A DNA stretch of 64,000 nucleotides from a virus (Duplodnaviria; Caudoviricetes): IMG/VR virus record IMGVR_UViG_2932588108_000002, positions 26,603 through 90,602 of that record; one strand, given 5' to 3'. Below, piece by piece: positions 31,381-56,306 of this stretch. The position numbers and the translations under genes are program-made. The notes below the pieces were generated by a model, which saw only the letters and a program-made list of their open reading frames with translations, ran no database searches and was not told where the DNA came from. Positions within the stretch are counted from its first letter, which is position 1. The number at the start of each line of letters is the position of its first letter.

Positions 31381-31764
31381 GTGACTACTCAGCAACCTCA
31401 GCCGTCGAACGACGACCCGACCGGCATCACTGGGTCGGTGCTTCCCGACGCGAAGATCGGCCGGGAGGCCTTCGGGCTTCTCCTGCTCTCGTTCGGTGTG
31501 CTCGGCGGCCTCGGTGCGCTGGGCGCCCTGCATTGGGCCGCGGGCCTGTCCGCCGCCCTCGTCGGACTGTGCGCCAGTGGTGTCGCCGTCCGCCGCAACT
31601 CCAAGCAGCGATGGCAGCAAGACGTCGGCGCCATGGCCGCATTCACGGCCTACGCGGGGCAGACCGCCCTCCTGTTCTATCTGCTGGCGCCGCTGGGATG
31701 GCTGGCAGCCAGCCTCCTCGCCGTCGCCGCTGGTCTGCGGCTGTCCAGCGATGAGGGGGCCTGA
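31381..31764 (+). CDS. Multi-pass membrane protein upstream of portal
   Basis: About four hydrophobic segments; TGATG overlap with portal start. Confidence 0.7.
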   Translation: MTTQQPQPSNDDPTGITGSVLPDAKIGREAFGLLLLSFGVLGGLGALGALHWAAGLSAALVGLCASGVAVRRNSKQRWQQDVGAMAAFTAYAGQTALLFYLLAPLGWLAASLLAVAAGLRLSSDEGA

Positions 31765-34226
31765 TGCCCCGCCAACTCTTCCCCGGCCTCCGCGGCCTCC
31801 TCGTCCCGCGGACCGCTGCGCCTCCTCCGCCCACGGAGACGAAGGATCTCCTGGCGGGCAACGCGTACGTGTCGATGACGTACGCCGGCGTCACGAACGT
31901 GTGGGGCACCCCTGGCCGCGCGGACGGCTGGGACCTCGAGCGCGTCATCATCGAGGGCTACGAACGCAGCATCTGGACCTTCAAGTCCATCGAGGCGATC
32001 AGCAAGCACGCCAGTACCCTGCCGATCCAGATAGGCCGGGGAGGCGACGAACGGCGCTTCGAGGAGACCCTCGATGACCACCCGCTCCTTCGCCTGCTGA
32101 ACAAGAAGGCCAACCCGCTAGAGACCGCCGATGTCTTCAAGAAGCGGCTGAGCGCGCAGCTTCTTCTGTCGAAAAAGGGCGTGTTCATCGAGAAGACCTA
32201 CAGCCGCGGCGGCACCCTCACCCGGCTCGATCTTCTGCCACCGGACCGCGTCCAGATCATCCCGGACGACGAGAACGCCGACTACATCAAGCACTTCGAG
32301 TTCACGGACTACAGCGGCCGTGTCCGGGAACTGCTGCCCAAGCACGTCATCTGGATCAGGGACCCCCACCCCACCGACCCCTTCTGCGGCGTCACTCCGC
32401 TCGAGGCCGCGGGCCTGTCCATCGACCTGGACGTCAAGGCCCGCACGTACAACATCTCATTTATTGACAATGACGGCAGACCGGGCGGCATCGTCGGTAT
32501 CGATCTGGACGGCGTCGACCCGCGCGAAGTCGACCGCATCCAGAAGCGCCTGGCCCCCGGCGCGCACCACGCCGGGCAGCTCACCCTCGTCGGTACCGGC
32601 CCCGGCGGCGTCACATACGTGGACACCTCCGCACGGCCGCGCGAGATGGCGTACGAGACGCTGGCCGGCATCTCCAAGGGCGAGATCCTGGCCGCGTTCG
32701 GCGTGCCCGAGAGCATCGTCGGTAACGCATCCGAGCGGACGTACGCCAACGCTGACCGGGAAGACTGGAACTTCTGGGACCACACCGAACTGCCCCACCT
32801 CAACCTGGTGACCTCCGGCTTCGACCCTGAGCTGGATGACGGCTGGACCGTCCGGTACGACACCTCCCGCGTCCAGGCCCTCGAGTTCCCCCGGCGCCAG
32901 GCCCGGCAGGAAGCCCGCGAGGAGTTCGACAAGGGCCTCATCACCATCGACGAGTACCGGGAGATCGCGGGCCGGGAAGCCTTCAACGTCCCGCAGTCCC
33001 GTGCCCTGTGGATCAGCCCGCAGAAGGCGCCCATACCCGCCAACCCGCAGGACGCTGCGGCCCTCGGCCTCGGCCCCGACCCGGCCGCCGGCGGAACTCC
33101 CGGCGCGGCGCCCACCGGCGTCCCGCTCCCCCAGGGCGCGGCTCCGGAAGACTCCGCGGCCGCGGACGTGGCAGCCGCGCGCGCCATCGAGCCCGGTCAG
33201 GACGCGGCGGCCGCCGTCGCCGCGGCACGAGCGCAGGCCCCCCTCGCACTGCCCGCCGGCACCACGGGCACCGCCGCCGACGCCGTCGCCTCAGCCCGCG
33301 CCACCAACACCGCCACCACCCCGGGCGATGCAGCCGCCGACGTCGACCGCGCCCGGAGCGCACAAGAGCAGACCCAGCCCGGCGATGCCGCCGAGGACGT
33401 CGACGCCGTCCGCGCCAAGGTCGAGAGCAAGGCCCTCCCCCAGGACGACGGATACGAAGTCACAGACGACGACTTCGACGCCCTCTCCTCTGCCGTGAGC
33501 GCGGCCCTCACCGCGCTACTGGCACGCCAGGAAGGCGTCATACTCGCCCGGCTCCGTGCGCCGAAGATCCGTAAGTACACGCGCTACTGGGAGCCACAGG
33601 ACGCCAACGACGCCCGGCACGTCGACGCGAACCTCGACCAAGACCGCGTCGTCAGCGCCGCCCGCTGGGCCGAGGAAACCACCAACACACTCGCCTCGAT
33701 CCTGCAGCAAGCCGCGGCCACGACCGCCCGCAAGGTGGGACAGAGCCTGACCGGCACTGACGCCGTTCCCCCTGCCGCGGCCGCGGCCGCACTGGTCTCC
33801 GCGGCGTACGCCGGTGAGGCAATCACCGCGATGCTCCGCGACCTCGCCACCCTCCTGTTCGACGCGCAGCACGGAGCTGTCGAACTCAGCGACCTCGAGA
33901 ACAAGATCACGTGGTTCTACCAGTCAGAGGCGCCCGCCACCGTCGCCCGGATTGCCGAGATGTGCGCCGTCTCGACCATCAACGGCGCAGCAGACGCCGC
34001 CGCCGAACAGGCCGGTCCCGGCGTCGTCCGAACCTGGATCACCCGCGGAGACGACCGCGTACGACCCGCACACAAGGCGCTGAACGGCAAGACACTCCCC
34101 GTCGGCACCCCGTACACCGTCGACGGCTCCAGCCTCCGCTACCCCGGCGACCCATTCGCGCCGATCGCCCTGACGATCAACTGCCGATGCCGCCTCCACT
34201 ACGCAACCGCCGAGGAGGCGAACTGA
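31764..34226 (+). CDS. Phage portal protein fused to MuF/minor head morphogenesis domain
   Basis: HPLLRLLNKKANP, LDLLPPDRV, GVTPLEAA, NDGRPGGIV, ILAAFGVP...TYAN, GLITIDEYRE; C-terminal TWITRGDDRVRPAH...YPGDP...INCRC. Confidence 0.9.
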   Translation: MPRQLFPGLRGLLVPRTAAPPPPTETKDLLAGNAYVSMTYAGVTNVWGTPGRADGWDLERVIIEGYERSIWTFKSIEAISKHASTLPIQIGRGGDERRFEETLDDHPLLRLLNKKANPLETADVFKKRLSAQLLLSKKGVFIEKTYSRGGTLTRLDLLPPDRVQIIPDDENADYIKHFEFTDYSGRVRELLPKHVIWIRDPHPTDPFCGVTPLEAAGLSIDLDVKARTYNISFIDNDGRPGGIVGIDLDGVDPREVDRIQKRLAPGAHHAGQLTLVGTGPGGVTYVDTSARPREMAYETLAGISKGEILAAFGVPESIVGNASERTYANADREDWNFWDHTELPHLNLVTSGFDPELDDGWTVRYDTSRVQALEFPRRQARQEAREEFDKGLITIDEYREIAGREAFNVPQSRALWISPQKAPIPANPQDAAALGLGPDPAAGGTPGAAPTGVPLPQGAAPEDSAAADVAAARAIEPGQDAAAAVAAARAQAPLALPAGTTGTAADAVASARATNTATTPGDAAADVDRARSAQEQTQPGDAAEDVDAVRAKVESKALPQDDGYEVTDDDFDALSSAVSAALTALLARQEGVILARLRAPKIRKYTRYWEPQDANDARHVDANLDQDRVVSAARWAEETTNTLASILQQAAATTARKVGQSLTGTDAVPPAAAAAALVSAAYAGEAITAMLRDLATLLFDAQHGAVELSDLENKITWFYQSEAPATVARIAEMCAVSTINGAADAAAEQAGPGVVRTWITRGDDRVRPAHKALNGKTLPVGTPYTVDGSSLRYPGDPFAPIALTINCRCRLHYATAEEAN

Positions 34227-34963: not shown

Positions 34964-35461
34964 TTACGAGTGGCCCCTTCCTGTGCGCAGGCGGACATAG
35001 CGGCGCTCGCCGGTTGGGCCCACGTAGGTGTAGACAGCGGCAAGTTGCTCCATGTTGCGGCGGCGTCGCAGGGGTTGCTCCTCAACGTTGGGCCGATAAC
35101 GACGGCGCAGGGCGGGCGATATCGCCTCAGCGATGGTGCGGGCGGCGAGACGTCGCTCTTCCTCGAGCGCTGCGGCCTCTGCCGCCTCGCCTCCTGATGC
35201 CGCGATTTCCTGCCGCCCCTTCCTGGGCTTCGGAGGCTCCGGAACGAAGACCCACTGTGCTGGCTTAGCCCGGTCGGCAGCGGGCGAATCACGCTTCGAG
35301 GAATACCGCACCGCCCGCCTCTGCGAGGGCGTAGTAATCGCCTCTTCCGCATCCCATCCGTCGTACATGCGACGGCGGAGGACTTCCCGCTGCACCACAC
35401 AGCGGTCGTCGCGCGCCCACTCTGCGGCGGTCTTTGTCTCTCCGAACGCACGGATGGCCAT
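34964..35461 (-). CDS. Hypothetical protein with a homing-endonuclease-type DNA-binding module
   Basis: FGETKTAAEWA...LRRRMYDGWDAEEAITTP resembles the HTH module appended to phage HNH endonucleases; GGGGAGG RBS. Confidence 0.55.
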   Translation of the reverse strand: MAIRAFGETKTAAEWARDDRCVVQREVLRRRMYDGWDAEEAITTPSQRRAVRYSSKRDSPAADRAKPAQWVFVPEPPKPRKGRQEIAASGGEAAEAAALEEERRLAARTIAEAISPALRRRYRPNVEEQPLRRRRNMEQLAAVYTYVGPTGERRYVRLRTGRGHS

Positions 35462-35554
35462 GTCCAGCCTCCCCTTGACCGGAACGAATGCCGGGGAGTC
35501 TACCCAAGGCCCCACCGGACAATGCGGGTTTACGGACCCCGGGAAAACCAGCGC

Positions 35555-35584
35555 GCGACGCTACGCACCCGCGCTCTGCATGGT
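35555..35584 (+). promoter_or_regulatory. Putative late promoter GCGAC-N19-CATGGT
   Basis: 7 nt before ATG 35592, no SD sequence. Confidence 0.6.
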
Positions 35585-35591
35585 CCGCGGC

Positions 35592-38500
35592 ATGCTGAAT
35601 CGCCCCACTGCACAGGCTGAGTCGCAGGACCTGAATCGCGACCTCGAGGTCAAGGTCACGCGTCGGCCGTGGAACCCTGCCCTGCACCCCCGCGACAGCA
35701 AGGGCCGCTTCATCGAGACGGGTGGAACGGTCAGGCTCTGGGGCGGCAAGCTCGCGCGCGTCGTGCGCGCCCTTCCGCACGACCGCGTCCTCGTCCAGGA
35801 CCAGAGCGGCCCCAACGAGTTCCGGGGACGCCGGCACACCACGAGTGCCAAGTGGGTGACGATGGTCGCCCGTCCCGACGGCACCGCGCCCACCGAGGAC
35901 GAGAACAAGGTCGTCGCCGAGGACGAGCGTCGACACAAGGACCCGCGCCGCGGCAACGGCGTCGCCCGGGACGACGATGGCGACCCTGACACCCCCAACG
36001 ACCCCCACGACGTCGACGACCAGGGCCGCCCGATCGGGGACGACGAGGGCGACGGCCCGCACGACGAGGACGACCAGGACGAGCCGGAAGACGGCGCCCA
36101 CCCCGTCAACCTCGACGCGCTTCCCAACCAGCAGAACGCCGCCGGAGCCCGGTACGCCGACACCGCGGCCGTCCGGCGGCACTTCACGAAGCTTGCCGAA
36201 CAGCCCGGCACCAAGCCGGAGATGGGCACCTTCCTGCGCTCGGTCGCCCACGACGACGACCTGCGGGTGACCCCGAACGGCCGCTTCGCGATCCTCCGCG
36301 ACGACAACGGCCGCTGGTACCTCACGGCCACCGGCACCGGACAGCGCATGGACGGCGCCGGCGACTTCGACACCCCGCAGGACGCCGCCCGGTTCGCCAA
36401 ACACCTCGACAAGACCGCCGTCAACGGCCGACTCACCCAGTTCAACCAGCCGTTCGACTTCTCCGACCCGCAACTGGACCGCGCCGCCCGCGACTGGCGC
36501 TCCACCAAGGGCGAGAACATCCAGGGCGCCATCATCCGCGCCCGCAAGGAGTTCGACGCCACCCCGGCGCCCGCGGCCGCGCCGAGGGCCCCCGCGGACA
36601 GCCCGGCCGACGGCAACGGACAGCGCTTCAGCACGCTCCAGGCCGTTCGCGCCCACTGGCAGCAGCGCCTCGACCAGATCAACGACATGGGCCCGGACAG
36701 CCTCCGAGAGCAGCGCGCCGCGCGGCACCTCGAAGGACTGATCAGCAACGACCGGATCAAGCTCGTCGGCCATGGCCAGTTCGTCGTCGGCCAGGACCAG
36801 AACGGGGAGTGGTACCTGGTCGCTACCGGCAGCGGCCTGCCGCTCCGCCGTCGGTGGACTTCCCAGCGGGACGCGCAGGCGTTCGCCCAGTCCTTCACCG
36901 AGAACGCCCCCATGGGAGACGACGGTAAGCCGCTGGACCTGTCGGACCCCAACACCCGCATCGCGACGTGGCGGTCCAACGACAACCGTTCGATCAGCGA
37001 AGTCATCGACGCAGCCGCCGAAAAGTTCCAGCGCGGCAACGCCGCGGAGGGAGCACCGGCCGCCAACCCGGCGCCGACCGCCGCCCCGGAAACACCCGCC
37101 GCTCCACAGGCACCGGAGACCCCGGAGGTGCCGCAGGCGCCCGCGCTGCCGGGCAACGCCGAGCCCGTCGACGGTGTCGACGGCTACCACTACGTCAACC
37201 ACGGCGGCGCGATCACCCTGTACGGCCCCGACGGGCAGGTCGCCGCCACCAGCGAGCGCGGCTACCCGCCGAAGGTCACCATCGACGGCGTCGTTGTCCC
37301 CGTCCCGCAGTACCCCCCGCAGGGCGCCCAGGTCATGGCCCGCCTCCACCTCGCCGCGCAGAACCCGCAGAAGCGGGACCGCGTCACCGCGGCGTGGGTG
37401 ATGAAGCCGGGCAAGAACGGCCAGCCCGCCAAGCGCGTCATGGTGTTCCGCGGCACCATCAAGGGCGACCAGCGGGACTACGACGCGATCGGCTCCACCA
37501 AAGCCATCAAGTGGGCACCCACGATGGGCCCGGTCGGCTCCTGGCAGACCCAGGCGAACATGACGGACGCCACCCGGGACGAACGCATCTCGGAGGTTCT
37601 GGCCAAGCTCGCCCGCCAGGGCCGCAACGTCCACGTCACCGACGAGACCACCCAGGGCACCCCCGACGCCCCCGGGGACGGAGGCGACGAGACCGCCGCG
37701 CTGCGCCGCGAGATCAGCGACGCCACCGACCCCCAGCTCGACCGCATGAAGAACGAGCGGTACGCGAAGTACCGCACCTCCCGTTCGGAAGCCAACCGTC
37801 GGCGCATCAACCAAGAGATCGACCTGATCACGGAGGAGCAGAAGCGCCGCCGGCAGGAGCGGGACGAGGCCGCCATCCGTGACGCCTCGCAGCTCAGTGA
37901 CGCCGACATTGAGGCCCGGGTCAAGGAGTCGCAGCAGGAGCGCGGCATGTACGGCTCCCGCCGGGGCGAGCCTGCGAACGACGTCGAGCGCGCCATCTAC
38001 CACGAGCGGCGCCGCCGCTCGCAGGCACTGGCCGACGACAACACCGACCTGACCACGATGGCCGAGGAGGACCTCGCCAAGGCCCGCGACGACGTCGCCC
38101 ACCGGGTCACCCTGCACCAGGCCGCCGGCGACGACCACGAGGCCGAGCAGACCGTACGCGCCGCCCTGCAGAAGCGGCACGACGCGATCGTCGGCGAGCA
38201 GCAGCGGCGCCGCGCCGAGCAGATCGCCGACCGGCCGCCGGTCGCTGACCTCACCGACGACGAACTGTCCGAGGAGTACAACGAACTCATTCGGCGGGAC
38301 TTCCGCAAGGCATCCCCGGAGGCTCAGCGAGTCCTCGAAGGCCGCCTGGAGGACATCAAGCAGGAGCGGCGCGAGCGGGAGAAGCGGGCCATCACGGACC
38401 GGGACACCCCCGACGCCGTCGACTCCAAGAAGCTGCTCGACGAATACACCGAGCTGCGCCGCGGCCGCTCGTCCTACGAGGCGGACGACGTCAAGGCCGC

Positions 38501-41500
38501 CCGCGAGGCGCGCATGGCCGCGATCGAGGCCGAGCTGAACCGCCGGGACACCACCCCGGAGGTCGAGCAGCTCCTCGCCCGCGTTGACAACCCCGACTCC
38601 AACGGGCAAATCAGCATCGACGGCGGCAGCGGGTACGGCTACATCGACTACAACCAGACCCTCGGCCGCGACCGTCGAGCGTACGGCTGGACCTGGGGCA
38701 AGAACTCCTGGGGCCACGGCAGCGCGGTCTACCCGTCGCGGGCTGCCGCTCTGGCCGCGATGGTCCGCGCGTACGACCAGGACCCGGACACCCGCGGTGA
38801 GCGCACCTGGGGCCGTGAGCGTCGCGTGTTCGTCCCGAAGATGTTCGTCGAGCTGTACCAGACGGCTCGCCTCGGCGACCGGCTCTCCAACGCATCCGAG
38901 GAACGCCAGTACCTCTTCCACCTGTTCCGGGACCGGTACGGCTGGGACGACGGCGTGAACCCGCTGGTGCCCAGCAACAAGAAGGGCCACCACATCAAGG
39001 GCCGGAACCTGGTCATTCCCGAGGGTCTCCTCGCGGAGCTGCACCGGGTGACGGAAGAACTGTCGCGGGACATGTCCGTGCAGGCCGCGGACCGCGACGC
39101 GGACAAGTCGGACCGGGCGAAGGCCAAGACGCGGCTGGCGTCCATCAACGTGGCTCTGCACGCGATTGAGTCAGCCCGTGAGGCAGTCCGCAAGAATGGC
39201 GGGAACGACGACCAGAAGGTCATCTCCCGCGAGGAGATCGAGGCACAGCAGGCCGCGCTCCGTGCAGCGCTGGGAGGCGACGACGATGAACATGTTCAGC
39301 CCGATGGTCCGGGATCACTGGCGGATGTACCGGCCGCAGGAGTGGGCGGCGATGGACGATCCGGAGGCGTTCGTGGAGACGAAGGCCAGGGAGATCGAGA
39401 GCCGGATTCTGGTCGCGGAGCAGGCGCTGGAGGAGACGGTGCCGGAGCCGGAGGGCTACGACGCGGCGGTCGGCCGGCTCAAGCAGATCAGGGCGGACGC
39501 GACGGCGATGGTTCTGGCGGAGCTTCTGCCCGAGCCGGAGCCGGAGGCGGAGAAGGCGCCCGAGCAGACGCCGATGGAGCAGCACCTGCAGGAGATCAGG
39601 GACGCGATGTACGACGCGTAGCGCGGTTTAGGCCGGACCCGGCCGACGCGCCCAAGGGCGCACGCGCGCGTGCGGCCGCCAACGTCGAGGCCATCAAGGT
39701 CCTCAAGAAGCTGGAGGCCGAGAACCGGCCGGCCACCGACGATGAGAAGCGCATCCTCGCCCGTTGGTCCGGGTGGGGCTCGGTGCCGATCATCTTCGCG
39801 AGCGAGCCGAACGAGAAGGAACCGCGGTACCAGCAGGGCGGCACCCGGTACGGCAAGTTCGCGAAGGACCACGAGCGGTGGTCCGAGTACAGCGACATCC
39901 GCAGCGAGCTGCAGCGCGTTCTGACGCCGGTCGAGTTCCGGCAGGCGTCCCGCGGCGTGCTGTCCATGCACTACACGCCGCAGCCCATCGCCGAGGCGAT
40001 GTGGGATGGCCTGCGCGCGTTCGGGTTCGACCGCGGCGACGTCCTCGAAGCCGGTTCCGGCGCGGGCACGTTCTTCGGTGTCGCACCCGACGGGGCGCGC
40101 CTGACCGGTGTCGAGCTGGACCCCACAACGGCCCGGATCGCTCAGGCGATCTACCCGCACGCCAACGTCCTGAACGAGTCCTTCGCCGAGACCGACGCCC
40201 GGCCGGGCACCTTCGACGCCGCGATCGGCAACGTCCCCTTCGCCCGCGTCCCCTTCGATGACAAGCGCTACCCGGCCGAGAGCCTGCACAACGGGTTCGT
40301 CACCAAGGAGATCGCCCTCGTCCGGCCCGGCGGCATCACCGCCGTCATCACCTCCCGCCAGACGCTCGACTCCAAGGGAGACAAGGCCCGCCGCCAGATG
40401 GCCAAGTACGGCGACCTGGTGGGCGCCGTCCGTCTGCCCTCCGGCGTCTTCAACGACGCCGGCACCGGCGTCACCACCGACGTGCTCGTGTTCCGGCGCC
40501 GTGAGGACGGCACCGAGCCGGCCGACACCTCATGGCTGGACGCCCCCGAGCGGGACATCAACGGCACCCCGCACCACATCAACGCCTACTTCGACGAGCA
40601 CCCCGAGCACATCCTCGGCACGCTGACCACCCAGTCCGGCCCGTACGGACCGGAGGTCACCGTCAAGGGCGACCCGGCCAAGGCAGCCGAACAGCTCCGC
40701 CACGCGCTCGAGGAGATCGCTGAGAAGGCGAAGGCCGACGGCCGCGGCTACGAGCCGCACCCCGACGGCGACAACCGGCCCCCGGTGCACCTGCAGACTG
40801 CGCGGGAGAAGCACGCCAACGACTGGACCGGGCGCCTCTACGAGGGCGACGACGGCCAGTTCTACCAGCACGTCAACGGCGCTGAGCCGGTCCTCATCGA
40901 CCCGGCCGACGGCAACACCGCCCAGCTCCGCGACCTCATGCGGCTTCGCGACGTCGCCGCTGAGCTGCGCGAGCTGGACCGCAAGAACGACGAGGAGGAG
41001 CGCGCCGAAGCCCTCCGCGCCCAGCTCCGCGACCTGCACGCCGCCTACGTCGAGAAGTACGGGCCGCTGTCCAAGCCCGGCCAGCACCGCACGAAGAGCG
41101 GCCGCCCGACAGCGTGGGGCTACTTCCGCGCCGACCCGGACGCCGCGGCCGTCCTCGCCCTAGAACGGTGGGACGCCAAGAACGGCCAGCCGGTCCTCTC
41201 CCGCATCTTCACCGAGCGCGCGGCCGCCCGCCGGCGTCAACTGACGTCGACCGACGACCCGAAGGCGGCTCTGGCCGCGGTCGTCGCCGCGCACGGCGAA
41301 GTGGACCTCGGGGAAGTCGCGCGCCTCCTCGACGTCGACCCGCAGGAGGCGTTGAAGCGCCTCGGCAATGAGGTCTTCACCAACCCGGACACAGGCCGCC
41401 TGGAACTGGCCAGCGGCTACCTGTCCGGTGCCGTCCGCGACAAGCTCGCCACCGCCCGCAAGGCTGCTGAGAAGGACCCGGCGTACGCGGTCAACGTGGC

Positions 41501-44500
41501 TGCGCTGGAGGCGGTACAGCCGCCGGAGCGGACCATCGGCCAGTTCACGCCCGAGATGGGCGCGCACTGGACGCCTCCGGAGCTGCTGCAGGGCTTCCTG
41601 CGGGAGTACCTGGGTGACCGGACCCTGCGCGTTGCGCACGATGACCGGTACGGCTGGGTTCTCAACACCGGCCGCGTGCCCGAGGCCAACAACGTCATGT
41701 ACGGCGTCCCGGCCAACCCGGAGAAGGGCACCAAGGGCAAGTCCGCCGTAGAGATCGCCCGCGCGGTCCTCGGCTTCGGATCGCTGACCGTCTACCACGA
41801 CGACAAGCGCAAGGACGTCGACGAGGCGACCTCACGTCTGATCCGGCAGAAGGCCGACCAGATGCGGGCCGAGTTCGCCAAGTACGCCACGGCGAACGCC
41901 GAGCGGCTGACGGTCCTCACCGAGTCCTACAACCGCATCATGAACGGGCACGTCGTCCGTTCGTACGAGGGCATGTCGCCCACCCTGGAGGGCTTCACGC
42001 CCGACAGGACCCCGCACGGCTGGCAGCTCGCCGGCGCCGCGCGGATGCAGTTCGAGCGGGGCGTGATCCTCGCCCACGAGGTGGGCCTCGGCAAGACCTC
42101 GACGCTCGTCATGGGCACCCAGGCGCTCAAGGCGTCCGGGCAGATCGAAAAGCCCATGGCCGTGGTGCCCAATCACCTGGCGAAGCAGTGGGCGGACGAA
42201 GCGCGGTACCTGTACCCGAACGCCGATATCCACCTGATCACCTCGGCGGACCTGGCCGGTGACCGGCGCTCCAGCACGCTGGAGTGGCTGCGCGCGAACA
42301 AGCCGGACCTGGTCATCTTCACCGAAGAGGCGTTCGGCTCCATCAAGATGAGTCCGGAGGCTCAGGAGGAGTACGAGTTCCGGGAGCTGGAGGCGCTGCG
42401 CGAGCAGCTTGACCGCCAGTACGAGGACGCCGACAACCCCAACCACCCGTTCATCGTCGCGAAGATCGAGCAGCGCATCGCGACGGTCCAGCGGAACATC
42501 AACAAGAACGCCGCGCCCATGCGGAAGCCGGGCGAGACGTACTGGGATGACCTCGGCTTCGACTACTTCGTCGTCGACGAGGCGCACCGCTACAAGGGCG
42601 TGGGCTTCCGCTCTAAGGAGGCCGGCGGCGACCCCGCGTCCATCCGCGGCGTCGACCTGCACCAGAAGACCACCGACCTGCACCGCCGCCGCCAGGGCCG
42701 CGCCACCATCACGCTCGCCACCGGCACGCCGCTGTCCAACAGCATCAGCGAGCAGTTCACCATGCTGCAGTTCGCGGCGCCGTGGGTGCTCGACGCGTAC
42801 AAGGCGGGCGCCCCGGACCTGTGGGCGAACACCTTCGGCCGCAAGACCCTGCGCATCGAGAACGCCCCCGACGGCTCCGGCCTCCGCGTCGTGGAGCGGT
42901 TCTCCGAGTTCCACAACAAGCGCGCCATGAAGACCATGTGGGGCCTGGTCGCGGACACCAAGCGCGCCGACGACGTCGGCATTCCCCGGCCGAAGCTCAA
43001 GGGCAACGCCCCCAACCTGATCATGGTCGAGGCCACGCCCGACCAGAAGCAGCGTCTCAAGGGGCTTGTGGCCCGCGGCCGCGCCATCCACAACGGCGAG
43101 CCTCAGCAGATCCGTAACCGCCAGGGCTCCCTGGTCGACGACAACATGCTCGCGGTGTCCAACGAGGGCACCAGCGTCGCCCTCGACCCGCGGCTCGTCG
43201 ACGCCAACGCTCCTGCGGGTAACAAGCTCAAGGCCGTCGCTGACCGGCACATCGAGCGCTACCACGCCAACAAGGACCGGGTCTACAAGGTCGCGTACGG
43301 CAGCGACGAGGACCACCCCGTCCGCGGCGCCCTCCAGATGGTCTTCCTGAACGAAGGCGTCCCGGACAGCGACAACAAGGGCGGCTTCGACGCCTACGCC
43401 CACCTCAAGCAACTCATGGTTGCTGGGGGCGTCCCCGAGGACAAGATCGCCTTTGTCCAGGATGCCAAGAAGTCCGGCAAGCCCGAGGACATGACAGAGC
43501 TCTTCCGGAAGGCCCGCGAAGGTGAAATCGCGGTCCTCATCGGCTCCAGCGCCGTCGCAGGCACGGGCATGAACGCCCAGGACCGCATGATCTCCCTCAC
43601 GCACGTCGACCTCGACTGGGGCGCCGCGCAGATGGAGCAGCGCAACGGCCGCATCCTGCGCTACGGCAACATGAACCCCGAGGTCGAGATCGACATCTTC
43701 GCGACCAAGGGCTCCATGGACGGCTGGAAGGCCGGATTCGTCGCCGCGAAGGCCGAGGGCCTGGTCGACATCCAGCGGCCCGAGCCGGAAGACGGCGACA
43801 CCAGCGACGTCGTTCAGGAGATCAGCGGCGGCGAGTTCGACTACGAGACCATGGAAGCCGAGATCGGCGGCAACCCCTACATGAGCCAGCTCATGAAGGC
43901 CCGCCGTCGGCTCAAGGACCTCGAGATCGACCAGCACAACGAGGCCGCCGAGCGTATCCGCCGCGCCGAAGCCCTCGATGAGCTGCGCCAGGAGGCCCAG
44001 GCCACCCGCGACGGCCTCGAACGCCGCGAGCGGGCCCTGCCCCGCATCCAAGAGGCCGGCGACCGCTTCACCATGACCATCGGCGGCTCCTCGTACGGCG
44101 AGCGCTCCGACGCTGGCAAGGCCCTGCACCGCGAGGTGACCGCCCGGCTCCTCGACCACAACCGCGAGGGCATGAGTCCCTGGCACATCATCGGCCAGTT
44201 CCGCGGCCTTGACTTCGGCGTGCGTACGGAGAAGCGGGAGGACGGCAAGCTCGTCGCACACGTCGGCTTCCCGGACCTCCGGAACTCCGACTTCGAGCGC
44301 ACGGTCGACGACCTGTCCAAGAAGGGCGCCGGGTCGGGCATGATCACCCGCCTCGGCAACGCCCTCGACAAGGCACCCGCCCTGCAGGAGTCCGACCGGG
44401 CCAAGGTCCCCGAGCTGGACGAGCAAATCGCCCTGCTCCAGTCCGCGCACGCCGCCGCAGACCTCACCCCGCAGATCGACCACGCGCGCGCACGGGCCAA

Positions 44501-47500
44501 CCTGCTCGAGGAGATCGTCGCCCGCATCACCGACCTCGACGCCAAGCCCGAGATCGACCCCAACGAACTCGACAAGAAGCGGTACAAGAAGCACGACCGC
44601 GAGATGATCGCGAAGGAGCGGCGCGAGGAGCGGGCACCGCTGCAGGCCGCGATCGACGAGGCCGTAGCGAACCTCCAGCGCTGGGACGAGCAGAACCCGG
44701 AACCGGAGAGGGACGACACCGTTCACCTCTCCGAGGACGAGGTACGCGACACCCTCGCGCGCCTGGCCCCCAACCCACCGGCGCACGACGCCTCTCAGGC
44801 CGACGACGGTGACGGCAACTCCACCGACACACCGGACGTCGAGGAGACAAACACCGCGGCGCCCGACAACGCCAGCGGTACAGGCGACGAGGGGCATTCG
44901 GCCGATACGCCGAGCACGGGCGACCTCCGCGACGAGAACGGCGACCAGGAGCAGGACGACACCGTTCGTCTCACTCAGGACGAGGTGGCCGACACCCTCG
45001 CCAGCATCCAGCCTGACGCCGACACGGAGAGCCAGGACACCGCGGACGCGGAGGAGCCCGGCGAACCGCTCAAGTACGCGTGGGACAAGCCCGAAGACTT
45101 CGTCACGCTCACCTTGCCGGCGGCACTCGTCGACTTCCTCAACGTCGAAGAGACCGCCGCCATGGAGGACCCGGACACCCGGAAGGCGCTCAAGGAGGCC
45201 AAGCCGGGCCGTAAGGGCACGCTCAAGGTGACGGGCCCCATCGAGGTGCACCGCGCACTCCTGGAGTGGGCGTGGGCGCTGGAAGGCGGCGAGGGCCTGG
45301 AGTCGGACCCGTCCGAGGTGCGCGCCTACCGCGCCTACCGCAAGGCCATCGACGAGGCCGGGGTCGAGCTGCGCCGCCGCCGCGCGGAGCGGGAGAGCAG
45401 CGACGGCGACTCCGCTGACGCCACCCCGGACGTCGACGTGCCGGACATCGAGGAGACGAACACCCCGGACGCTGCCAGCGCGGGCGACGGAGGCGACGAC
45501 GAGCCGCCAGCCGACACCCCGAGCACCGGCGACCTCGGCGACGACAGCAACGACGACCAGGGCGGCGACCAGAGCGAAGCTGACGACCAGGAGAGCACCG
45601 ACACCGTCACCCTGACCCCCGATGAGGTCAGCGACCAGCTCGACGCCGTACGGCCCGAAGGGTCGAAGGCTCCCTCGTCGATGGACGACGGGGAGATACG
45701 CGACGAGATCGTGGACCTGATGGGACGCGAGATGGCCAACGGCGGGGAACTGTCCGGCGTCGACCGCACCCGCCTGCAGGTCCTCGAAGCGGAAGAGGCC
45801 CGCCGCGCCGGCCGTGCGCCGAAGCCGGAGCCCAAGCCCAAGCAGCCCACGGAGGAGCCTGGCGGCCTCTTCGACGTCGACGAGCCGACCACCCGGCAGG
45901 CGGACAGCACCGCGGACCCGGACAACCCCGAGGACCAGCCTGACGACCTGTTCGGCACGCCGGACATGATCGCCGACCACGAGGGCCGCGATACCAGCGG
46001 TCTGCGCCCGGCGCGCATGCGGAACGCGTCCGACCTGGAGCCGGGCGACCGGTACACCGACGCCGACGGCCGTACGCGCACCGTGGCCGAGCCGCCGGTG
46101 CGTACTGGCCGCGGCCAAACCCGCATCGTCACCGACGACGGTGAGGAGCGCTTCTACAACGCCGACGCCCAAGTACGGCTGCGCTACCCGGACGAGGAGA
46201 TCCCCGAGAACGACACGGAGCTGCGTTCCGAGCCGGACGAGCCCCCGGTCGACGAGCCGGAGACCACCGCGGACAGCGGTCGCAGCGACATCAACGACCG
46301 CACCGACCGCATGTCCGACCTGGTGCGCCAGGCCACCGACGAGGCAGGCGGGGACGATCTGCCGGAGATCCGCGACGTCACCGACGCCATGGACCGCGCG
46401 GCGGACTCCGACGCCCCGCACGCCGAGCTCCGCGACGCCGCCGACCGGCTCGACTCCCTCGCCGAGATGTACGAACTGGGTGGCCCCGATGGGGAGCGCG
46501 CGGCCGAGCTGTTCCGCCGCGCCGCCCGGATGGCGCGGGGCGAGGACGACGACAGCAACGACCGCCGCGACGACGAGATCAACCGCGACGAGAACGAGAC
46601 CAACGTCCCGGACAACACCAGCGACAGCGAGGAGGACCAGGAGCAGGACGACGAGGGACGCCGGCAGCGCCGTGACGGCGACCTCGGGGGTGGCGCCGCC
46701 GACCCTGACGGGGGCGGAGCCGACACTCCTGACGCCCCGTCCGACGACGAGGAGAACAGCGACAGCTCCGACGATGAGCCGGACAACGCCGACGACCAGC
46801 AGGACGAGCCGGACGCCGAAGATCCGGACAACGAAGACGAGGAAGACGAACGGAACCGGCGCAGGCGTCGCCGGCGCCGCGGCAACGGTGGCCCCGGCGG
46901 TCCTGGTGGCCTCGGTGGGCCCGGCCTGCCGCACCTGAACCTGCCTGACTTCAACGTGCCGTCCGGCACCGGCGCCGACGGTGGCCACGGCAACGGGCCC
47001 ACTCCGCACGGCCGTGACCGTGACGGCGGCCGCCACCGTGACGTGGACTCCGTTCGCCGAGCCTGGAGGAACGGCGAAGGTCTCACCGCGGCCGAGGACA
47101 CCCCCGAGCGGCGCGCCGCCCTTGCTCAAGCCGCCGAGCGGGAAGGCATGGTTCTCTCCCCGGGCGGTGGGCTGGTGACATGGCCGGAGCCGCAGGACGA
47201 CGGCACCACCCTGTGGCGGTTCGCTCAGGCCCGCAACGGCACCAACCTGCCCGGCCTGACCCTGCGCACCGACAACCCCGAGGAGGCCCGCGCCCTTGCC
47301 GGGCGCTTCGAGGAGATCACTGGCCGCGACGGGCAGCCCTTCGACTGGCACCACCCGTGGGGACCCAGCACCGTACGCCAGTGGCGCGACAACGAGGGCC
47401 GCAACCTGCAGCTCGCCCTCCACGCTGCCCTCGACGACTTCGAGCAGCAGCGCTCCGCCAACACCGAACCGACGACGCGCGCCCTGCCGGACGACCTCAC

Positions 47501-50500
47501 GGAGCTGGACGACGACGCGCTGGTCGCGGCGTGGGGTGACGACCTCACCCCCGAAGACCAGATGCGCCTTATGCAGGAGATGGACCGCCGCGACGGCTAC
47601 ACCGACCAGCGTGTTCGCGACGCCGTCCCGGACACGCCGCCGGCCGACGCCGAAGAGGCGGAGAAGCGTGGCAGGGCCATGGACGAGGCCTTGGGCTTCG
47701 GGGGTACGGACGTCACCCGACCCCGCCGCACCCAAGAGGACATCATCCGCGCGGCGTTCGCCGACTTCGACGAGGCCCGCTACCAGCAAGCCATCGAGGA
47801 GACGAACGGCTACTTCTTCAACCGCAAGCACAAGTACGGCGACAACCGTCCGGACGAGCGCTCGCTGTTCTCTGGCGGCGAGTTGGCCAAGTTCGGGCGC
47901 TGGAGGCAGTACGCCAGTGAGGAGCTGGTCAACTGGTACGACGCCAACGGCGGCCGGATCACCTACAACCAGTTCAAGCTGCAGTACCGCGACAACGACC
48001 GCAGAGACCGGGAAATCTTCGAGGAGGAGCAGCGCCGACAGGCCGAGGAGCAGGGCCAGCAGGCGGACGCCGGGCAGTCCCCCGAGGAGCCCGCCACCGG
48101 GGACACCGAGCCGACGGCCGAAGGTACTGATGTCCCGGACGTGGATGCGGCAACGGGCTCGGACGCTCCGCGGTTCGCCAACGTCGATGAGGTCCGTGAC
48201 CGGTGGCGGCGCGGTGAACTGGATGAGCCGAGCCACCCCTCGGCGGTCCCGGAGGAGCGGTTCCGCGACCGCTACGCGGACAACCCCACGCTCGAGCTGT
48301 CCGAGGGCGGTCACCTGGCCATCCTCGGTGACGACGACCGAGGGGCAAGCTGGGACGTCATGGCGCCCGGGTCGATGGAGCCTGTCGCCCGCGCGTTCAA
48401 CCGCGACGACGCTCGCGCCTACGCCCGCATCCTCGAGGGAGTTCGTGACGAGGACGGGCACCCCTTCCCATGGGATGCTCCGGACGCGGCGGAGCGGGCT
48501 CGTACGTTCCGCGGCCCCAACGGGGAATCACTTGGCGAAGCCGTCGCCCAGCAGATCATCGACCGTGGCGAAGCCGAGGGCCTGCACAAGTCGTGGCAGG
48601 ACGACGCCCGTCTCTACCTCGACCGCGAACGGCAGTTGGATGAGCACTACGACGCTTGGCGTGCCCAGCAGGAGGCCGACGGGTACACCATCCCCGTCGA
48701 CGTCCGCGACGCTCAGGCCGGCGACGAGATCTCTGCGCTGGATCAGGACACCGATCACCCCGTAAGCCAGCGTGGTCGTCTCACCGGTCCGCTGCGGGCA
48801 AGGCACATGAACCGCACAGGCACCTGGCCGTTTACGAACGGCACGGACTACCGAGCGAGCATCGAAGGCAGGACTCAGGAGATCGACCCGTCCCGTGAGG
48901 AGAACCAGACACGCGAGACGCCGTTCAACTGGTTCTACTTCCGCAACACCCCGGACCGGCCCACGGCCTTCCGCCAGCCGCGCCCTGGCGAGGAAGAGCA
49001 GAACAATCGGGCAGAGACGCCGCAGGCCGAGCCCACCAGCATCCCGGAGCCCGCCGCACGGCCGGAGCCGACCCCGGACCGCGCCCCTGCGGAGCCAGAG
49101 CCTGCGACACCGGACGCCCCGGCCGACGAGCCGAAGGGCGAGCCCGAACCCGTGGGCGGCCAGCCCGCGAACTGGGCCCGGGTCTCGGACCTCGTGCCCG
49201 GCGACATGGTCCGCATGGACGGCAGGACGAGGAACGGGCGCGCCGTCACGCGAGCCGGGTACGTCTTCACGGCCCCGACGCGCGTGGAGGTCACCCGCAA
49301 CGGCCGCACCGTGCAAATGTGGCAGACGTACGTCACGGAGAACCCGGACGGCACCGGCAAGCGCGGCCACGTCTTCACGCCGCTCAACGCCACCGCCGCC
49401 CGCGCCGAAGCCCCGGACGACACCGTGCCCGGCTCCCCGGCCACCGGTGCCCAGGCCGCCATCCAGACCGGCAGCCTGCCCGACACGGTGCCCATGGATC
49501 GCAACGGCCGCGGCCTGTTCCCGGGCAGCACCGTCACCGGCGTTGACGGGCTACGCACCCGGGAAGGAACCGTCACCGGCGCCACCAGCACCACCGTGTC
49601 GGTGCGCTGGGACAACAACGACACTGCCGACGGCCTGTCGCCCAACACCCTCACGGTGACCGGCGGCGACCGCCCCGACGGCTGGACCGCATCCGGGCAG
49701 CGCGTCACTCCCGGGCACATCGTCACCGATACCGACGGTGCACTCCTCGGTCCCGTCGACGAGGTCAACGGCGACCGCGTCACCATCACTACCGCTGGGG
49801 GCACCATCAGCCGCAGCGCCGGAGACCTCCGCGTCGCCGGCGAAGTCCGTGACGACACCAACCCCGCCACCGCCCCGGTGACCGGGATCGACGACCCGAC
49901 GGCCGCGGACCTCAAGGAGGACGACGTCGTAGTCCTGGACCTCGACGGCACCCTCACCACCGTGGCGGTCACCGGCACCCAGCGGGACGGCGACCGGGTC
50001 ACCATCGACTACGCCGACACCACCACAGGCGAGATGGGCCAGATCGACGTGGACGCCACCACGGTCCTCCCGCGGGCCCAGGGCGCCAACGGCCACGCCC
50101 CCGACCTCGGCCCGGAGGACGCCCCGGACACCCCGGACGACCTGACGGTGCACGAGCCGCCGCACCGCGTCGAGCCGGTCACCGGCCCGACCGTCGACCC
50201 GGAGCTGACCACGACCGACCGGGACGTCATCGGTGATCTCGCCGACGCCCCGGACGATGACCCGGACGCACAGCAGGGCGCCGTGCGTATCACCGCGGAC
50301 CTGCCCGTCACCCCGGAGCAGGCGACCGCGCTCGCCGCACAGCTCCGCGACTCGGCAGACCAGTCGACGCCCGAGGGCCGTGCCGCGCTGCGCGCCGCCG
50401 ATCACCTCGACCGCGCCATTGGCCGCACGCCTCCGGAAGAACTCGGCCGTCCGCGACCGTCCAACGCTTCCCAGGTCGCCGAAGACGACACCATTGCCCT

Positions 50501-56193: not shown

Positions 56194-56306
56194 GCGACGT
56201 TAACCCCTCTCTCCCCTTTCCATTCCGCCTCGCGTTGAGGCGTCCCGGTGCTGGCCGGGCGAGCGACGCACGTCAACCGCACCCAGCACCAGGGAGAGCA
56301 CCCCAA

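What the first reader, a model, noticed from the sequence alone, without database searches (positions are those of the whole stretch)
39286..39621. Same-strand nested gene (TnpV-like) inside the giant ORF
Seen: GGGAGG 8 nt before ATG 39286 opens a 111-aa +1-frame ORF with near-uniform G/C third positions (ATG AAC ATG TTC AGC CCG ATG GTC CGG). The giant frame here has A/T-ending codons and encodes only a G/A/D/R linker, yet stays open. The nested stop falls exactly where the MTase domain begins (ARFRP...ANVEAIKVLK), and that domain has no obvious start of its own. From recall, TnpV-like genes sit just upstream of MTase-SNF2 genes in conjugative elements. Inference: an ancestral tnpV-MTase/helicase unit was fused into a virion protein by read-through while the small gene was kept, giving real dual coding, perhaps for a chaperone or regulator.
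Basis: partly seen in the sequence, partly recalled or inferred. Interest (0 to 1): 0.75.

Follow-up and report, generated by a model that had tools for sequence, protein, structure and literature searches.

The report
TnpV-like gene nested inside giant gene
A small, well-folded TnpV-like protein is encoded in a shifted reading frame inside the flexible linker of a giant phage/plasmid anti-restriction gene, and the same hidden two-in-one arrangement recurs in many unrelated bacteria, where gene annotation misses it.

Summary
ORF 39286-39621 (111 aa, GGGAGG 8 nt upstream) lies in the +1 frame of the 5827-aa ORF 35133-52616. GC3 moves from the giant frame (0.33-0.50 inside, >=0.8 outside) to the nested frame (0.93-1.00) exactly over this stretch.

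Comparison shows it is not chance. Of 63 related loci with this small gene upstream of the MTase-helicase domain, 60 carry it in the +1 frame. The big frame is open across it in 59 of those 60, against 21.6 expected from synonymous shuffles. Short forms start upstream with a conserved peptide (MARR..GQLxFDLWG), so the small gene is fully nested there too.

Six Clostridia loci carry Pfam-grade TnpV nested the same way. 26 free-standing TnpV genes have 1-18 stops in that frame.

The nested product folds confidently (pLDDT 94.7). The giant-frame product of the same DNA does not (62.0). TnpV kinship is remote (hhalign 96%).

Verdict: genuine conserved dual coding. Translation and function remain untested.

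The parts
35133..52616 (+). Giant ORF (5827 aa, frame 0), a polyvalent-type protein in the phage head module
   Evidence: ORF list. It lies between the portal gene 31764-34226 (Phage_portal E 3.5e-41) and the prohead protease/NUDIX gene 53888-56083 and capsid gene 56235-57596. The relative plasmid CP108533.1 annotates one 17,541-nt CDS at the same place and no nested gene.
35133..39284 (+). N-terminal extension of the giant protein (1384 aa), no known family
   Evidence: No Pfam hit at E<=0.01 and no PHROG hit at E<=0.01. GC3 in frame 0 is 0.80-1.00 over 38001-39260, the part that was profiled.
39272..39277 (+). Shine-Dalgarno-like GGGAGG, 8 nt before the nested ATG
   Evidence: Sequence. GGAG or GAGG at -17..-4 of the nested start is found in 49 of 60 related loci, against 11.5% of background positions.
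39286..39621 (+). Nested TnpV-like gene (111 aa, +1 frame), predicted all-helical
   Evidence: GC3 0.93-1.00. Homologs at the same place in 63 of 80 loci. AlphaFold2 pLDDT 94.7, pTM 0.72, five helices. hhalign to Clostridia TnpV: 96%, E 4.2e-9. 2005 cluster representatives at E<=1e-3, and the best 150 are 94-303 aa.
39282..39620 (+). Giant-frame reading of the same DNA: a G/A/D/R-rich linker of about 113 aa with no predicted structure
   Evidence: Translation. GC3 0.33-0.50. AlphaFold2 control with 29 homologous giant-frame stretches: pLDDT 62.0, pTM 0.14, no helix of 4 or more residues and no strand.
39621..44831 (+). MTase + SNF2-type helicase core (DarB-like) of the giant protein; it begins at the nested stop and has no start codon of its own
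   Evidence: phrog_10089 'DarB-like antirestriction' E 1.7e-275, residues 11-1737. Pfam SNF2-rel_dom 1.8e-8, ResIII 2.3e-6, Helicase_C 1.8e-4, weak Methyltransf_11 and Eco57I. No ATG/GTG/TTG in frame near its beginning.
44832..52616 (+). C-terminal part of the giant protein, no known family
   Evidence: No Pfam or PHROG hit for 45999-52613.

Best explanation
One stretch of DNA (39286-39620) carries two protein-coding readings on the same strand, and both are kept by selection.

Reading 1 (frame 0): ribosomes that start the giant gene at 35133 meet no stop. They read straight through this stretch and make an unstructured G/A/D/R-rich tether of about 112 aa. The tether joins a 1384-aa N-terminal extension to the MTase/SNF2-helicase (DarB-like) core. 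That core has no start codon of its own.

Reading 2 (+1 frame): ribosomes that bind the internal GGGAGG and ATG 39286 make a separate 111-aa helical protein, a remote relative of TnpV.

Which reading is older: the small gene looks like the normal one (typical codon usage, folded product, free-standing relatives). The linker looks like the reading laid over it.

The arrangement is not peculiar to this giant gene. It is the usual state of this MTase-helicase family in actinobacterial plasmids and elements, and it recurs with true TnpV in some clostridial polyvalent-protein genes.

Shown here: both frames are open and conserved, the start signals are conserved, and fold confidence differs sharply between the two products.

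Inferred: the nested ORF is translated from its own start, and its product acts together with the MTase-helicase as an accessory or partner whose supply is tied to that gene. The biochemical role is unknown.
For: 1. Frame signal in the window: GC3 switches to the +1 frame exactly over 39261-39620.

2. Same layout in relatives. In 10 of 10 plasmid loci first examined, the large frame is -1 relative to the small ORF and is open across the whole of it and 133-4000 nt beyond.

3. Wider sample. 80 loci were fetched with the MTase domain (the best 80 of 589 confirmed relatives). 63 have the small gene upstream. It is in the +1 frame in 60, +2 in 2 and 0 in 1. The large frame is open across it in 59 of the 60, against 21.6 expected from synonymous shuffles. 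Some single-locus probabilities are as low as 0.004 (L006).

4. The large gene really starts upstream. In short forms a conserved peptide, M-A-R-R..G-Q-L-x-(F/L)-D-L-W-G, with an ATG 76-190 nt before the small ATG, lies in the large frame. No start codon exists after the small ORF's stop ahead of the conserved R-F-R-P..DLAP..AN..AI motif.

5. Independent initiation signals for the small gene. Start codons are ATG 55, GTG 7, TTG 1 of 63. GGAG/GAGG is present in 49 of 60, against 11.5% background. An in-frame stop lies <=60 nt upstream of the start in 13 of 60, and 3 nt upstream in one.

6. Low-GC natural control. In Clostridia, Pfam-grade TnpV ORFs (L089 E 1.1e-34, L082 E 7.7e-24) lie in the +1 frame inside ORFs longer than 2.6 kb. 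4 of the 30 best TnpV loci from 300 genomes are nested like this and 26 stand alone. The -1 frame has 0 stops in the 6 nested copies and 1-18 (mean 5.8) in the 26 standalone copies. T at third codon positions is 0.11 against 0.24.

7. Products. The nested protein folds with pLDDT 94.7. The linker reading of the same DNA gives 62.0 and no secondary structure elements.

8. The family is made of small proteins. The best 150 of 2005 representatives are 94-303 aa, mostly matched from residue 1.

9. No assembly error.
Against: No expression data for either reading were seen.

The codon-position asymmetry expected under purifying selection is almost absent in the small frame. Over 15 independent pairs, differences per site are 0.35/0.34/0.38 at positions 1/2/3. 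Restricted to the conserved domain they are 0.335/0.325/0.363. The adjacent MTase region gives 0.25/0.21/0.42. So the small protein evolves fast, and this test alone does not prove constraint.

Against close relatives, substitutions in the overlap are only mildly skewed to the small frame's third position (18/11/11 and 13/9/11).

For the window alone, the open giant frame has P = 0.23, and several high-GC loci have P near 1.

Loci are related by descent, so 59 of 60 is not 60 independent trials.

The window's protein does not reach any Pfam, NCBIfam or PHROG model. The fold has no match in the PDB (best E 2.1), so its function is undefined.

No sigma-70-like promoter was found near the nested gene.
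Confidence: 0.8

Rival explanations
1. Fossil gene: an old tnpV-like gene was overrun by the large gene. Only the linker reading is used now, and the small ORF persists by inertia in GC-rich DNA.
For: Codon-position differences in the small frame are nearly flat. No expression data exist. In high-GC DNA, alternative frames stay open easily (one search lists antisense ORFs of 1290 and 2209 aa).
Against: The ORF is intact, with a start codon, in 60 of 63 loci at 15-86% identity. GGAG/GAGG is enriched 49 of 60 against 11.5%. GC3 is 0.93-1.00 in its frame. The fold is predicted with confidence from 44 sequences. The other alternative frame carries 1-13 stops in the same stretches. In low-GC Clostridia, nested copies keep full-length Pfam TnpV scores.
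Confidence: 0.08
2. Recoding: the TnpV-like segment is joined to the large protein by programmed frameshifting, either +1 into it or -1 out of it before its stop, rather than being made as a separate protein.
For: The frame relation is constant (+1 in 60 of 63). The small ORF's stop sits within 0-60 nt of the MTase domain start in most actinobacterial loci.
Against: An in-phase X_XXY_YYZ heptamer occurs in the last 90 nt of the small ORF in only 3 of 60 loci. That is 0.56 sites per kb against 0.58 in the ORF body, and the window has none. Stops lie in the small frame just upstream of its start (<=60 nt in 13 of 60). The ATG and SD are conserved. The large frame has its own conserved start upstream. 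In Clostridia the nested TnpV lies 840-1900 nt from the MTase domain. None of the best 150 family representatives is a long fusion.
Confidence: 0.03
3. Not one gene: the 'giant ORF' is an artefact of an alternative frame that happens to stay open. The N-terminal part, the small gene and the MTase-helicase are three separate genes.
For: P(open) = 0.23 for the window alone. PGAP annotates separate small and large genes in L005-L009.
Against: The N-terminal part has no stop and the MTase part has no start codon, so read-through is unavoidable. The annotated starts in L005, L007 and L008 cut off the conserved N-terminal motif of the large protein. The frame is open in 59 of 60 loci against 21.6 expected. 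It has 0 stops in nested clostridial copies against 1-18 in 26 standalone ones.
Confidence: 0.03
4. Assembly or sequencing error: a pair of compensating indels near 39280 and 39620.
For: None found.
Against: Contigs of two other isolates' runs (X2, X3) cover the stretch with no indel inside 38700-40400. L001 and L011 align without gaps. The +1 ORF ends in a stop and starts with SD and ATG in dozens of independent assemblies.
Confidence: 0.01

Closest known systems
Embedded out-of-frame gene pairs of phages, e.g. lambda Rz/Rz1 spanins
   Same: A complete gene with its own start lies in the +1 frame inside a larger gene on the same strand, in a mobile element. (The Rz/Rz1 layout is recalled. For PMC5295617 and PMC6139136 I saw only the search listing and abstract openings.)
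   Different: Here the host reading is only an unstructured linker of a multi-domain giant protein. The embedded gene belongs to a family that also exists free-standing. The pair recurs across many actinobacterial genera, and with true TnpV in Clostridia. No functional link between the two products has been shown.
comS inside srfA (Bacillus subtilis) and GndA inside gnd (E. coli): same-strand nested small genes in bacteria
   Same: A small out-of-frame ORF inside a very large or housekeeping gene, translated from an internal start. (comS is recalled. For GndA I saw the search listing and abstract opening of PMC11230408.)
   Different: Those products are under 50 aa and restricted to a narrow lineage. 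This one is 90-210 aa, predicted to fold, and found in 60 of 63 sampled loci of the family.
TnpV of Tn4451/Tn4453-type clostridial transposons (Pfam PF14198)
   Same: A helical core of about 80 residues aligns (hhalign 96%, E 4.2e-9). Both are small proteins of mobile elements. Some true TnpV genes are nested in the same way.
   Different: The window's protein lacks the first ~22 residues of the TnpV model and has a different tail. It does not reach the Pfam model. Most clostridial TnpV genes sampled stand alone (26 of 30). TnpV's role is itself unsettled: passages of PMC3158075 say it was 'postulated' to act in excision by likeness to lambda Xis.
Polyvalent proteins of phages and conjugative elements (Iyer et al. 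2017, PMC5512222); P1 DarB-like MTase-helicases
   Same: A giant multi-domain protein with an MTase + SNF2 helicase core in a head-morphogenesis or transfer module. Clostridial relatives carry YodL, LPD16, LPD25, MuF_C and ArdC-N-like domains.
   Different: A term search of that paper's main text finds 0 uses of 'TnpV', 'frameshift' or 'overlapping'. Its supplements could not be opened and may list architectures that bear on this. An embedded second gene in a linker is not part of the published description as far as I could see.

Membership tests
TnpV (Pfam PF14198) | Scores at or above the Pfam gathering cut-off (27 bits) | tested here: not met
   The window's protein has no Pfam family even at E<=10. 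Its homologs reach 24.9 bits (L006, E 2e-5), 25.3 (L019, E 1.6e-5), 21.6 (L051) and 16.5 (L008).
TnpV (Pfam PF14198) | Homology of the helical core, as remote superfamily membership | tested here: met
   hhalign of 42 sequences of the window's family against 23 clostridial TnpV: probability 96.0%, E 4.2e-9, columns 4-84 against 23-111.
TnpV (Pfam PF14198) | N-terminal TYxxxGDYxIPNL segment (model positions 1-22) | tested here: not met
   The alignment starts at TnpV position 23. The window's family begins at M-N-x-Y-G.
Same-strand embedded (nested, out-of-frame) gene pair | Both reading frames open over the whole shorter gene, more often than chance | tested here: met
   59 of 60 against 21.6 expected. 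0 stops in 6 nested clostridial copies against 1-18 in 26 standalone ones.
Same-strand embedded (nested, out-of-frame) gene pair | The embedded gene has its own translation start signals | tested here: met
   ATG in 55 of 63. GGAG/GAGG in 49 of 60 against 11.5% background. GGGAGG-8 nt-ATG in the window.
Same-strand embedded (nested, out-of-frame) gene pair | Both products are actually made | not testable with these tools
   No ribosome profiling or proteomics was available. One 302-nt contig of an RNA library covers 39141-39437, but the tool warns that this does not show transcription.
Same-strand embedded (nested, out-of-frame) gene pair | Purifying selection on the embedded frame, seen in substitution patterns | tested here: inconclusive
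   Differences per site are 0.35/0.34/0.38 at small-frame positions 1/2/3, against 0.25/0.21/0.42 in the MTase region. No overlap-aware dN/dS was run.
Programmed -1 ribosomal frameshift site | In-phase slippery heptamer X_XXY_YYZ near the end of the upstream frame | tested here: not met
   None in the window. 3 of 60 loci have one, at the same density as elsewhere in the ORF.
DarB-like MTase-helicase / polyvalent protein | MTase and SNF2/DEAD-type helicase domains in one polypeptide of a phage or conjugative element | tested here: met
   phrog_10089 E 1.7e-275. Pfam SNF2-rel_dom, ResIII and Helicase_C, plus weak MTase models. Head-module position. Anti-restriction activity and packaging were not tested.

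The most novel reading that the evidence does not exclude
The embedding is a regulatory device, not just compact coding. The TnpV-like protein would be an obligate partner (assembly factor, inhibitor or release factor) of polyvalent MTase-helicases. Placing its start inside the translated linker would make its synthesis depend on ribosome traffic in the host frame, which would fix the ratio or timing of the two products. On this reading the device has been kept in two phyla, and TnpV, a protein known for decades without a function, would be a general cofactor of anti-restriction helicase-methylases.
Probability: 0.2. Interest if true: 0.85.

Novelty: new member of a known kind. Interest (0 to 1): 0.76.

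Why it matters
Long, fully nested, out-of-frame genes are thought to be rare in bacteria, and annotation pipelines exclude them by design. This one has three features that make it useful.

1. It is widespread. It was found in 60 of 63 sampled loci of a family spread over many actinobacterial genera, and again in Clostridia.

2. It is systematically mis-annotated.
- In L005, L007 and L008 the large gene's start is placed too far downstream, leaving its conserved N-terminus in 'intergenic' DNA.
- In the giant form the small gene is dropped.

3. It is experimentally tractable. Point mutations can silence one reading and spare the other.

It also gives a lead on TnpV, a common mobile-element protein of unknown role, by tying it to anti-restriction MTase-helicases.

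It is an example of an overlap in which a folded, older gene is overlaid by a disordered linker. That bears on how overlaps arise and why they tend to encode disorder.

Tried and rejected
- Direct family assignment of the window's 111-aa product failed. NCBIfam gave only a chance-level hit (E 0.069). Pfam gave nothing at E<=10 and PHROGs nothing at E<=0.01.
- Foldseek of the model against the PDB gave no match better than E 2.1. The 'viral' structure library was not searched.
- The phage collection gave no DNA or protein match.
- A promoter/terminator consensus scan of 38600-40000 found 0 sites. This says little for Streptomyces promoters.
I used the MTase-domain alignment instead.
- Relatives cannot be drawn for a virus record. 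I centred the Clostridia sample on a genome reached through L089.
- RNA evidence: the metatranscriptome run X22 has a 302-nt contig over 39141-39437 with 4 differences, and short pieces elsewhere. The tool notes that contigs in an RNA library do not show transcription, so I draw nothing from it.
- A possible preference for G before the small ORF's stop (which reads GTA = Val in the large frame) was considered. Across the larger set both G and C are common, so I dropped it.
- The four loci that depart from the pattern are L015, L033, L061 and L068. They show frameshifts, extra stops or an inserted segment. Three of them (L033, L061, L068) are metagenome-assembled. They look like decayed or mis-assembled copies rather than a second architecture, but this is a reading by eye.
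- Of the 17 loci without a small-gene hit, 2 are cut at a contig end (L020, L048) and 10 are from Clostridia. Two of those 10 have true TnpV nested further upstream. The other 5 (L025, L071, L078, L083, L090) were not resolved. L090 has a 297-aa +1-frame ORF with a TnpV-like stretch by eye.
Full report
WHAT IS IN THE WINDOW

The window is 68.7% G+C and is part of a 90.6-kb provirus record. ORF 35133..52616 (5827 aa) is the longest ORF listed over 36000-43000. It lies between a portal gene (31764-34226, Phage_portal E 3.5e-41) and a prohead-protease/NUDIX gene (53888-56083) and a major capsid gene (56235-57596).

Residues encoded from 39621 onward match 'DarB-like antirestriction' phrog_10089 (E 1.7e-275) and Pfam SNF2/ResIII/Helicase_C, with weak methyltransferase models. 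The first 1384 aa and the last ~2200 aa match nothing.

THE OBSERVATION

GGGAGG (39272-39277), an 8-nt spacer, ATG 39286 and TAG 39619-39621 define a 111-aa ORF in the +1 frame.

In 90-nt bins, the giant frame's GC3 is 0.80-1.00 on both sides and 0.50/0.33/0.47/0.33 inside 39261-39620. The +1 frame reads 0.97/0.93/0.93/1.00 there.

The giant frame yields a G/A/D/R-rich stretch and then VARFRPDPADAPKG..ANVEAIKVLK. No ATG/GTG/TTG lies in that frame from 277 nt before the nested stop to 90 nt after it.

For this locus alone the open giant frame is unremarkable (P = 0.23 under synonymous shuffling).

NOT AN ERROR

- The contig of run X1, the possible source of this DNA, is identical over 38600-40400.
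- Contigs of two other isolates' runs span the same stretch with 76 substitutions each. Their only indel is a 6-nt insertion near 38666.
- Two relatives (L001, 86% identical; L011) align without gaps for 600 nt on either side.

RELATIVES ON PLASMIDS

DNA search found 85 plasmid records, mostly actinobacterial. Three Streptomyces plasmids carry giant ORFs (5846, 5193 and more than 2900 aa) with the same small ORF in the +1 frame at 85%, 37% and 46% protein identity.

In five other plasmids (Nocardioides pNOCA01, Microbacterium, Ruania, Arthrobacter pA19BH1, Streptomyces NBC_01281) the small gene is annotated as a separate gene just upstream of an 'SNF2-related/helicase' gene.

Reading those loci frame by frame changed the picture:
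- In all of them the large gene's frame is -1 relative to the small ORF.
- In L005, L007 and L008 the conserved start of the MTase domain ((R/S)F(R/T)P..DLAP..AR..AN..AI) lies in what the annotation calls intergenic DNA. In L006-L008 it begins within a few codons of the small ORF's stop, and no start codon precedes it downstream of that stop.
- That frame is open through the whole small ORF and 133-373 nt beyond.
- Upstream of the small ORF it encodes a conserved peptide with its own ATG, and in several loci an SD-like run.

WIDER SAMPLE

With the MTase N-domain alignment I fetched the best 80 of 589 confirmed relatives from one-genome-per-species contigs. An HMM of the small protein finds it upstream of the MTase domain in 63 of the 80. 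It is in the +1 frame in 60, +2 in 2 and the same frame in 1.

In 59 of the 60 the large frame is open across the entire small ORF. Synonymous shuffles that keep each protein and its codon counts predict 21.6. Individual probabilities reach 0.00-0.05 in lower-GC loci.

The loci are related by descent, so these are not 60 independent trials. They do span many genera and identities to the window's protein (alignment A7) down to 15-30%.

The large-frame peptide upstream of the small gene is conserved as M-A-R-R-x(4-10)-G-Q-L-x-(F/L)-D-L-W-G, with an ATG 76-190 nt before the small ATG in most short forms.

The four loci that depart from the pattern look like decayed or mis-assembled copies.

SIGNALS FOR A SEPARATE SMALL PRODUCT

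- Start codons are ATG in 55, GTG in 7 and TTG in 1 of 63.
- GGAG or GAGG lies at -17..-4 in 49 of 60, against 11.5% of positions downstream in the same loci.
- A stop in the small frame lies within 60 nt upstream of its start in 13 of 60, and 3 nt upstream in one.
- In-phase slippery heptamers near its end are no commoner than elsewhere: 3 of 60 loci, none in the window.
- A profile of the family finds 2005 cluster representatives at E<=1e-3 and 1026 at E<=1e-10. The best 150 are all 94-303 aa, mostly matched from residue 1.

These points argue for internal initiation and against frameshift fusion.

LOW-GC CONTROL

Ten of the 80 loci are from Clostridia. Their large ORFs carry YodL, LPD16, LPD25, MuF_C, DUF3849 and ArdC-N-like domains, i.e. 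they are 'polyvalent proteins'.

Two of them contain a +1-frame ORF that is full-length Pfam TnpV: L089 E 1.1e-34 and L082 E 7.7e-24. Each has a GAAAGGAG run before its ATG. The large frame has 0 stops across them, and the third frame has 16 and 10.

Searching PF14198 in 300 genomes of that class gave matches in 101. Of the 30 best loci, 4 are nested in an ORF longer than 2.6 kb in the -1 frame, and 26 stand alone.

Over the Pfam-matched stretch the -1 frame has 0 stops in the 6 nested copies and 1-18 (mean 5.8) in the 26 standalone ones. T at third positions is 0.11 against 0.24. Shuffle probabilities for the nested copies are 0.002-0.14.

This is a natural experiment. Where no gene reads through TnpV, that frame is closed.

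THE TWO PRODUCTS

With 44 homologs, AlphaFold2 models the window's 111-aa protein at mean pLDDT 94.7 and pTM 0.72, as five helices including a long hairpin. The giant-frame translation of the same DNA, with 29 homologous stretches, gives pLDDT 62.0 and pTM 0.14, with no helix of 4 or more residues and no strand.

Foldseek finds no PDB relative for the small protein (best E 2.1).

IS IT TnpV?

The window's protein itself reaches no model. Homologs score just below Pfam's cut-off. A profile-profile comparison with 23 clostridial TnpV sequences gives 96.0% probability and E 4.2e-9, over columns 4-84 against TnpV positions 23-111.

I therefore call it TnpV-like: a remote relative lacking the first ~22 residues, and not a member by Pfam's own threshold.

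TnpV's function is not established. Passages of PMC3158075 say it was 'postulated' to act in excision by likeness to lambda Xis.

EVIDENCE THAT CUTS THE OTHER WAY

- Substitution patterns do not show the classic signature of purifying selection in the small frame. In 15 independent pairs, differences per site are 0.35/0.34/0.38 at its positions 1/2/3 (0.335/0.325/0.363 in the conserved domain). The adjacent MTase region gives 0.25/0.21/0.42.
- Against close relatives the overlap shows 18/11/11 and 13/9/11 substitutions at large-frame positions 1/2/3 (large-frame position 1 is the small frame's third position). Flanks show the usual excess at the large frame's third position.
- A flat profile is what an overlap, or weak constraint, would give. 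It does not decide.
- No expression data were available.

MECHANISM, WITH ITS STATUS

Shown:
- Two open, conserved readings.
- Conserved start signals for each. For the large gene this is an upstream conserved N-terminus in short forms, and a long coding extension with no stop in the window.
- A folded product against an unstructured one.

Inferred:
- The giant protein is translated through the overlap, using it as a tether between the N-terminal extension and the MTase-helicase.
- The small protein is made from the internal SD/ATG.
- The small gene is the older reading (normal codon usage, free-standing relatives) and the linker was laid over it.
- The small protein works with the MTase-helicase.

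NOVELTY

Embedded out-of-frame genes are a known kind: Rz/Rz1, comS in srfA, and phiX174 genes (recalled; listings).

I found no description of this pair:
- 'TnpV' with 'overlapping' returns 4 papers, and none of their titles or abstract openings deals with gene overlap; I read the TnpV passages of one (PMC3158075).
- 'TnpV' alone returns 38; of the 25 listed, none by title or abstract opening concerns nesting.
- The polyvalent-protein paper has 0 uses of 'TnpV', 'frameshift' or 'overlapping' in its main text.
- A Faecalibacterium ICE paper that discusses polyvalent proteins has none either.
- A search for 'alternative reading frame', 'overlapping gene', 'conjugative' and 'anti-restriction' (papers holding at least 3 of the 4) found nothing relevant.

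Supplements were closed, and subscription journals are not in the library, so prior mention cannot be excluded.

Noticed in passing
L016-L085 upstream of the small ORF (e.g. L016:2284-2413); L089 about 1060-1080: The conserved N-terminal peptide of short-form large proteins, MARR..GQL(E/S)(F/L)DLWG (QLSLFD in some Acidimicrobiia loci), resembles the beta-clamp-binding motif QL[SD]LF; the motif is recalled, not tested. In clostridial nested loci a QL(T/S)LF-like string (AYIQLTLFP in L089) follows the TnpV overlap instead.
   Followed up: no
L005:4277-4449, L007:2039-2184, L008:4544-4716: Database annotation of the SNF2/helicase genes in pNOCA01, the Ruania plasmid and pA19BH1 starts downstream of the conserved (R/S)F(R/T)P..DLAP..AN..AI motif. 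That motif is left in 'intergenic' DNA, so the starts appear to be placed too late.
   Followed up: yes
L003:6001-7588: The Streptomyces hirsutus plasmid holds only a fragment of the unit: 130 nt upstream, the small ORF (annotated WP_331763664.1) and about 195 nt of the MTase start with a frameshift. An IS5 transposase follows. Substitutions in this small ORF are evenly spread over codon positions (13/14/16), as in a decaying copy.
   Followed up: partly
L009:3995-4809 and onward: Streptomyces sp. NBC_01281 plasmid has two tandem TnpV-like genes (the first possibly degenerate) ahead of an annotated 29-kb 'UvrD-helicase domain-containing protein' CDS at record positions 182150-211222.
   Followed up: no
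window 35289-39161 (-) and 41832-48461 (-): Antisense ORFs of 1290 and 2209 aa run opposite the giant gene. These are probably the usual open frames of GC-rich coding DNA. They were not examined.
   Followed up: no
window 31764-34226: The portal protein carries a weak Mu F-like match at its C-terminus (PF04233, E 2.3e-4, residues 734-811, below cut-off). MuF domains often head polyvalent proteins, but here the match sits on the portal gene instead.
   Followed up: no
L090:2105-2998; L071:2600-2947; L078:2615-2971: Loci without a hit to the small-protein HMM still have +1-frame ORFs that end at the MTase start. L090 (58% GC) has a 297-aa ORF with a GETYLETIQNQQRAQALAREFAMADL stretch that looks TnpV-like by eye. 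L071 and L078 have unrelated-looking ORFs of 115 and 118 aa.
   Followed up: no
L053, L075: Two loci with the full nested layout come from bins labelled Deltaproteobacteria and Myxococcota (64-72% GC). This is either transfer beyond Actinomycetota or mis-binning.
   Followed up: no
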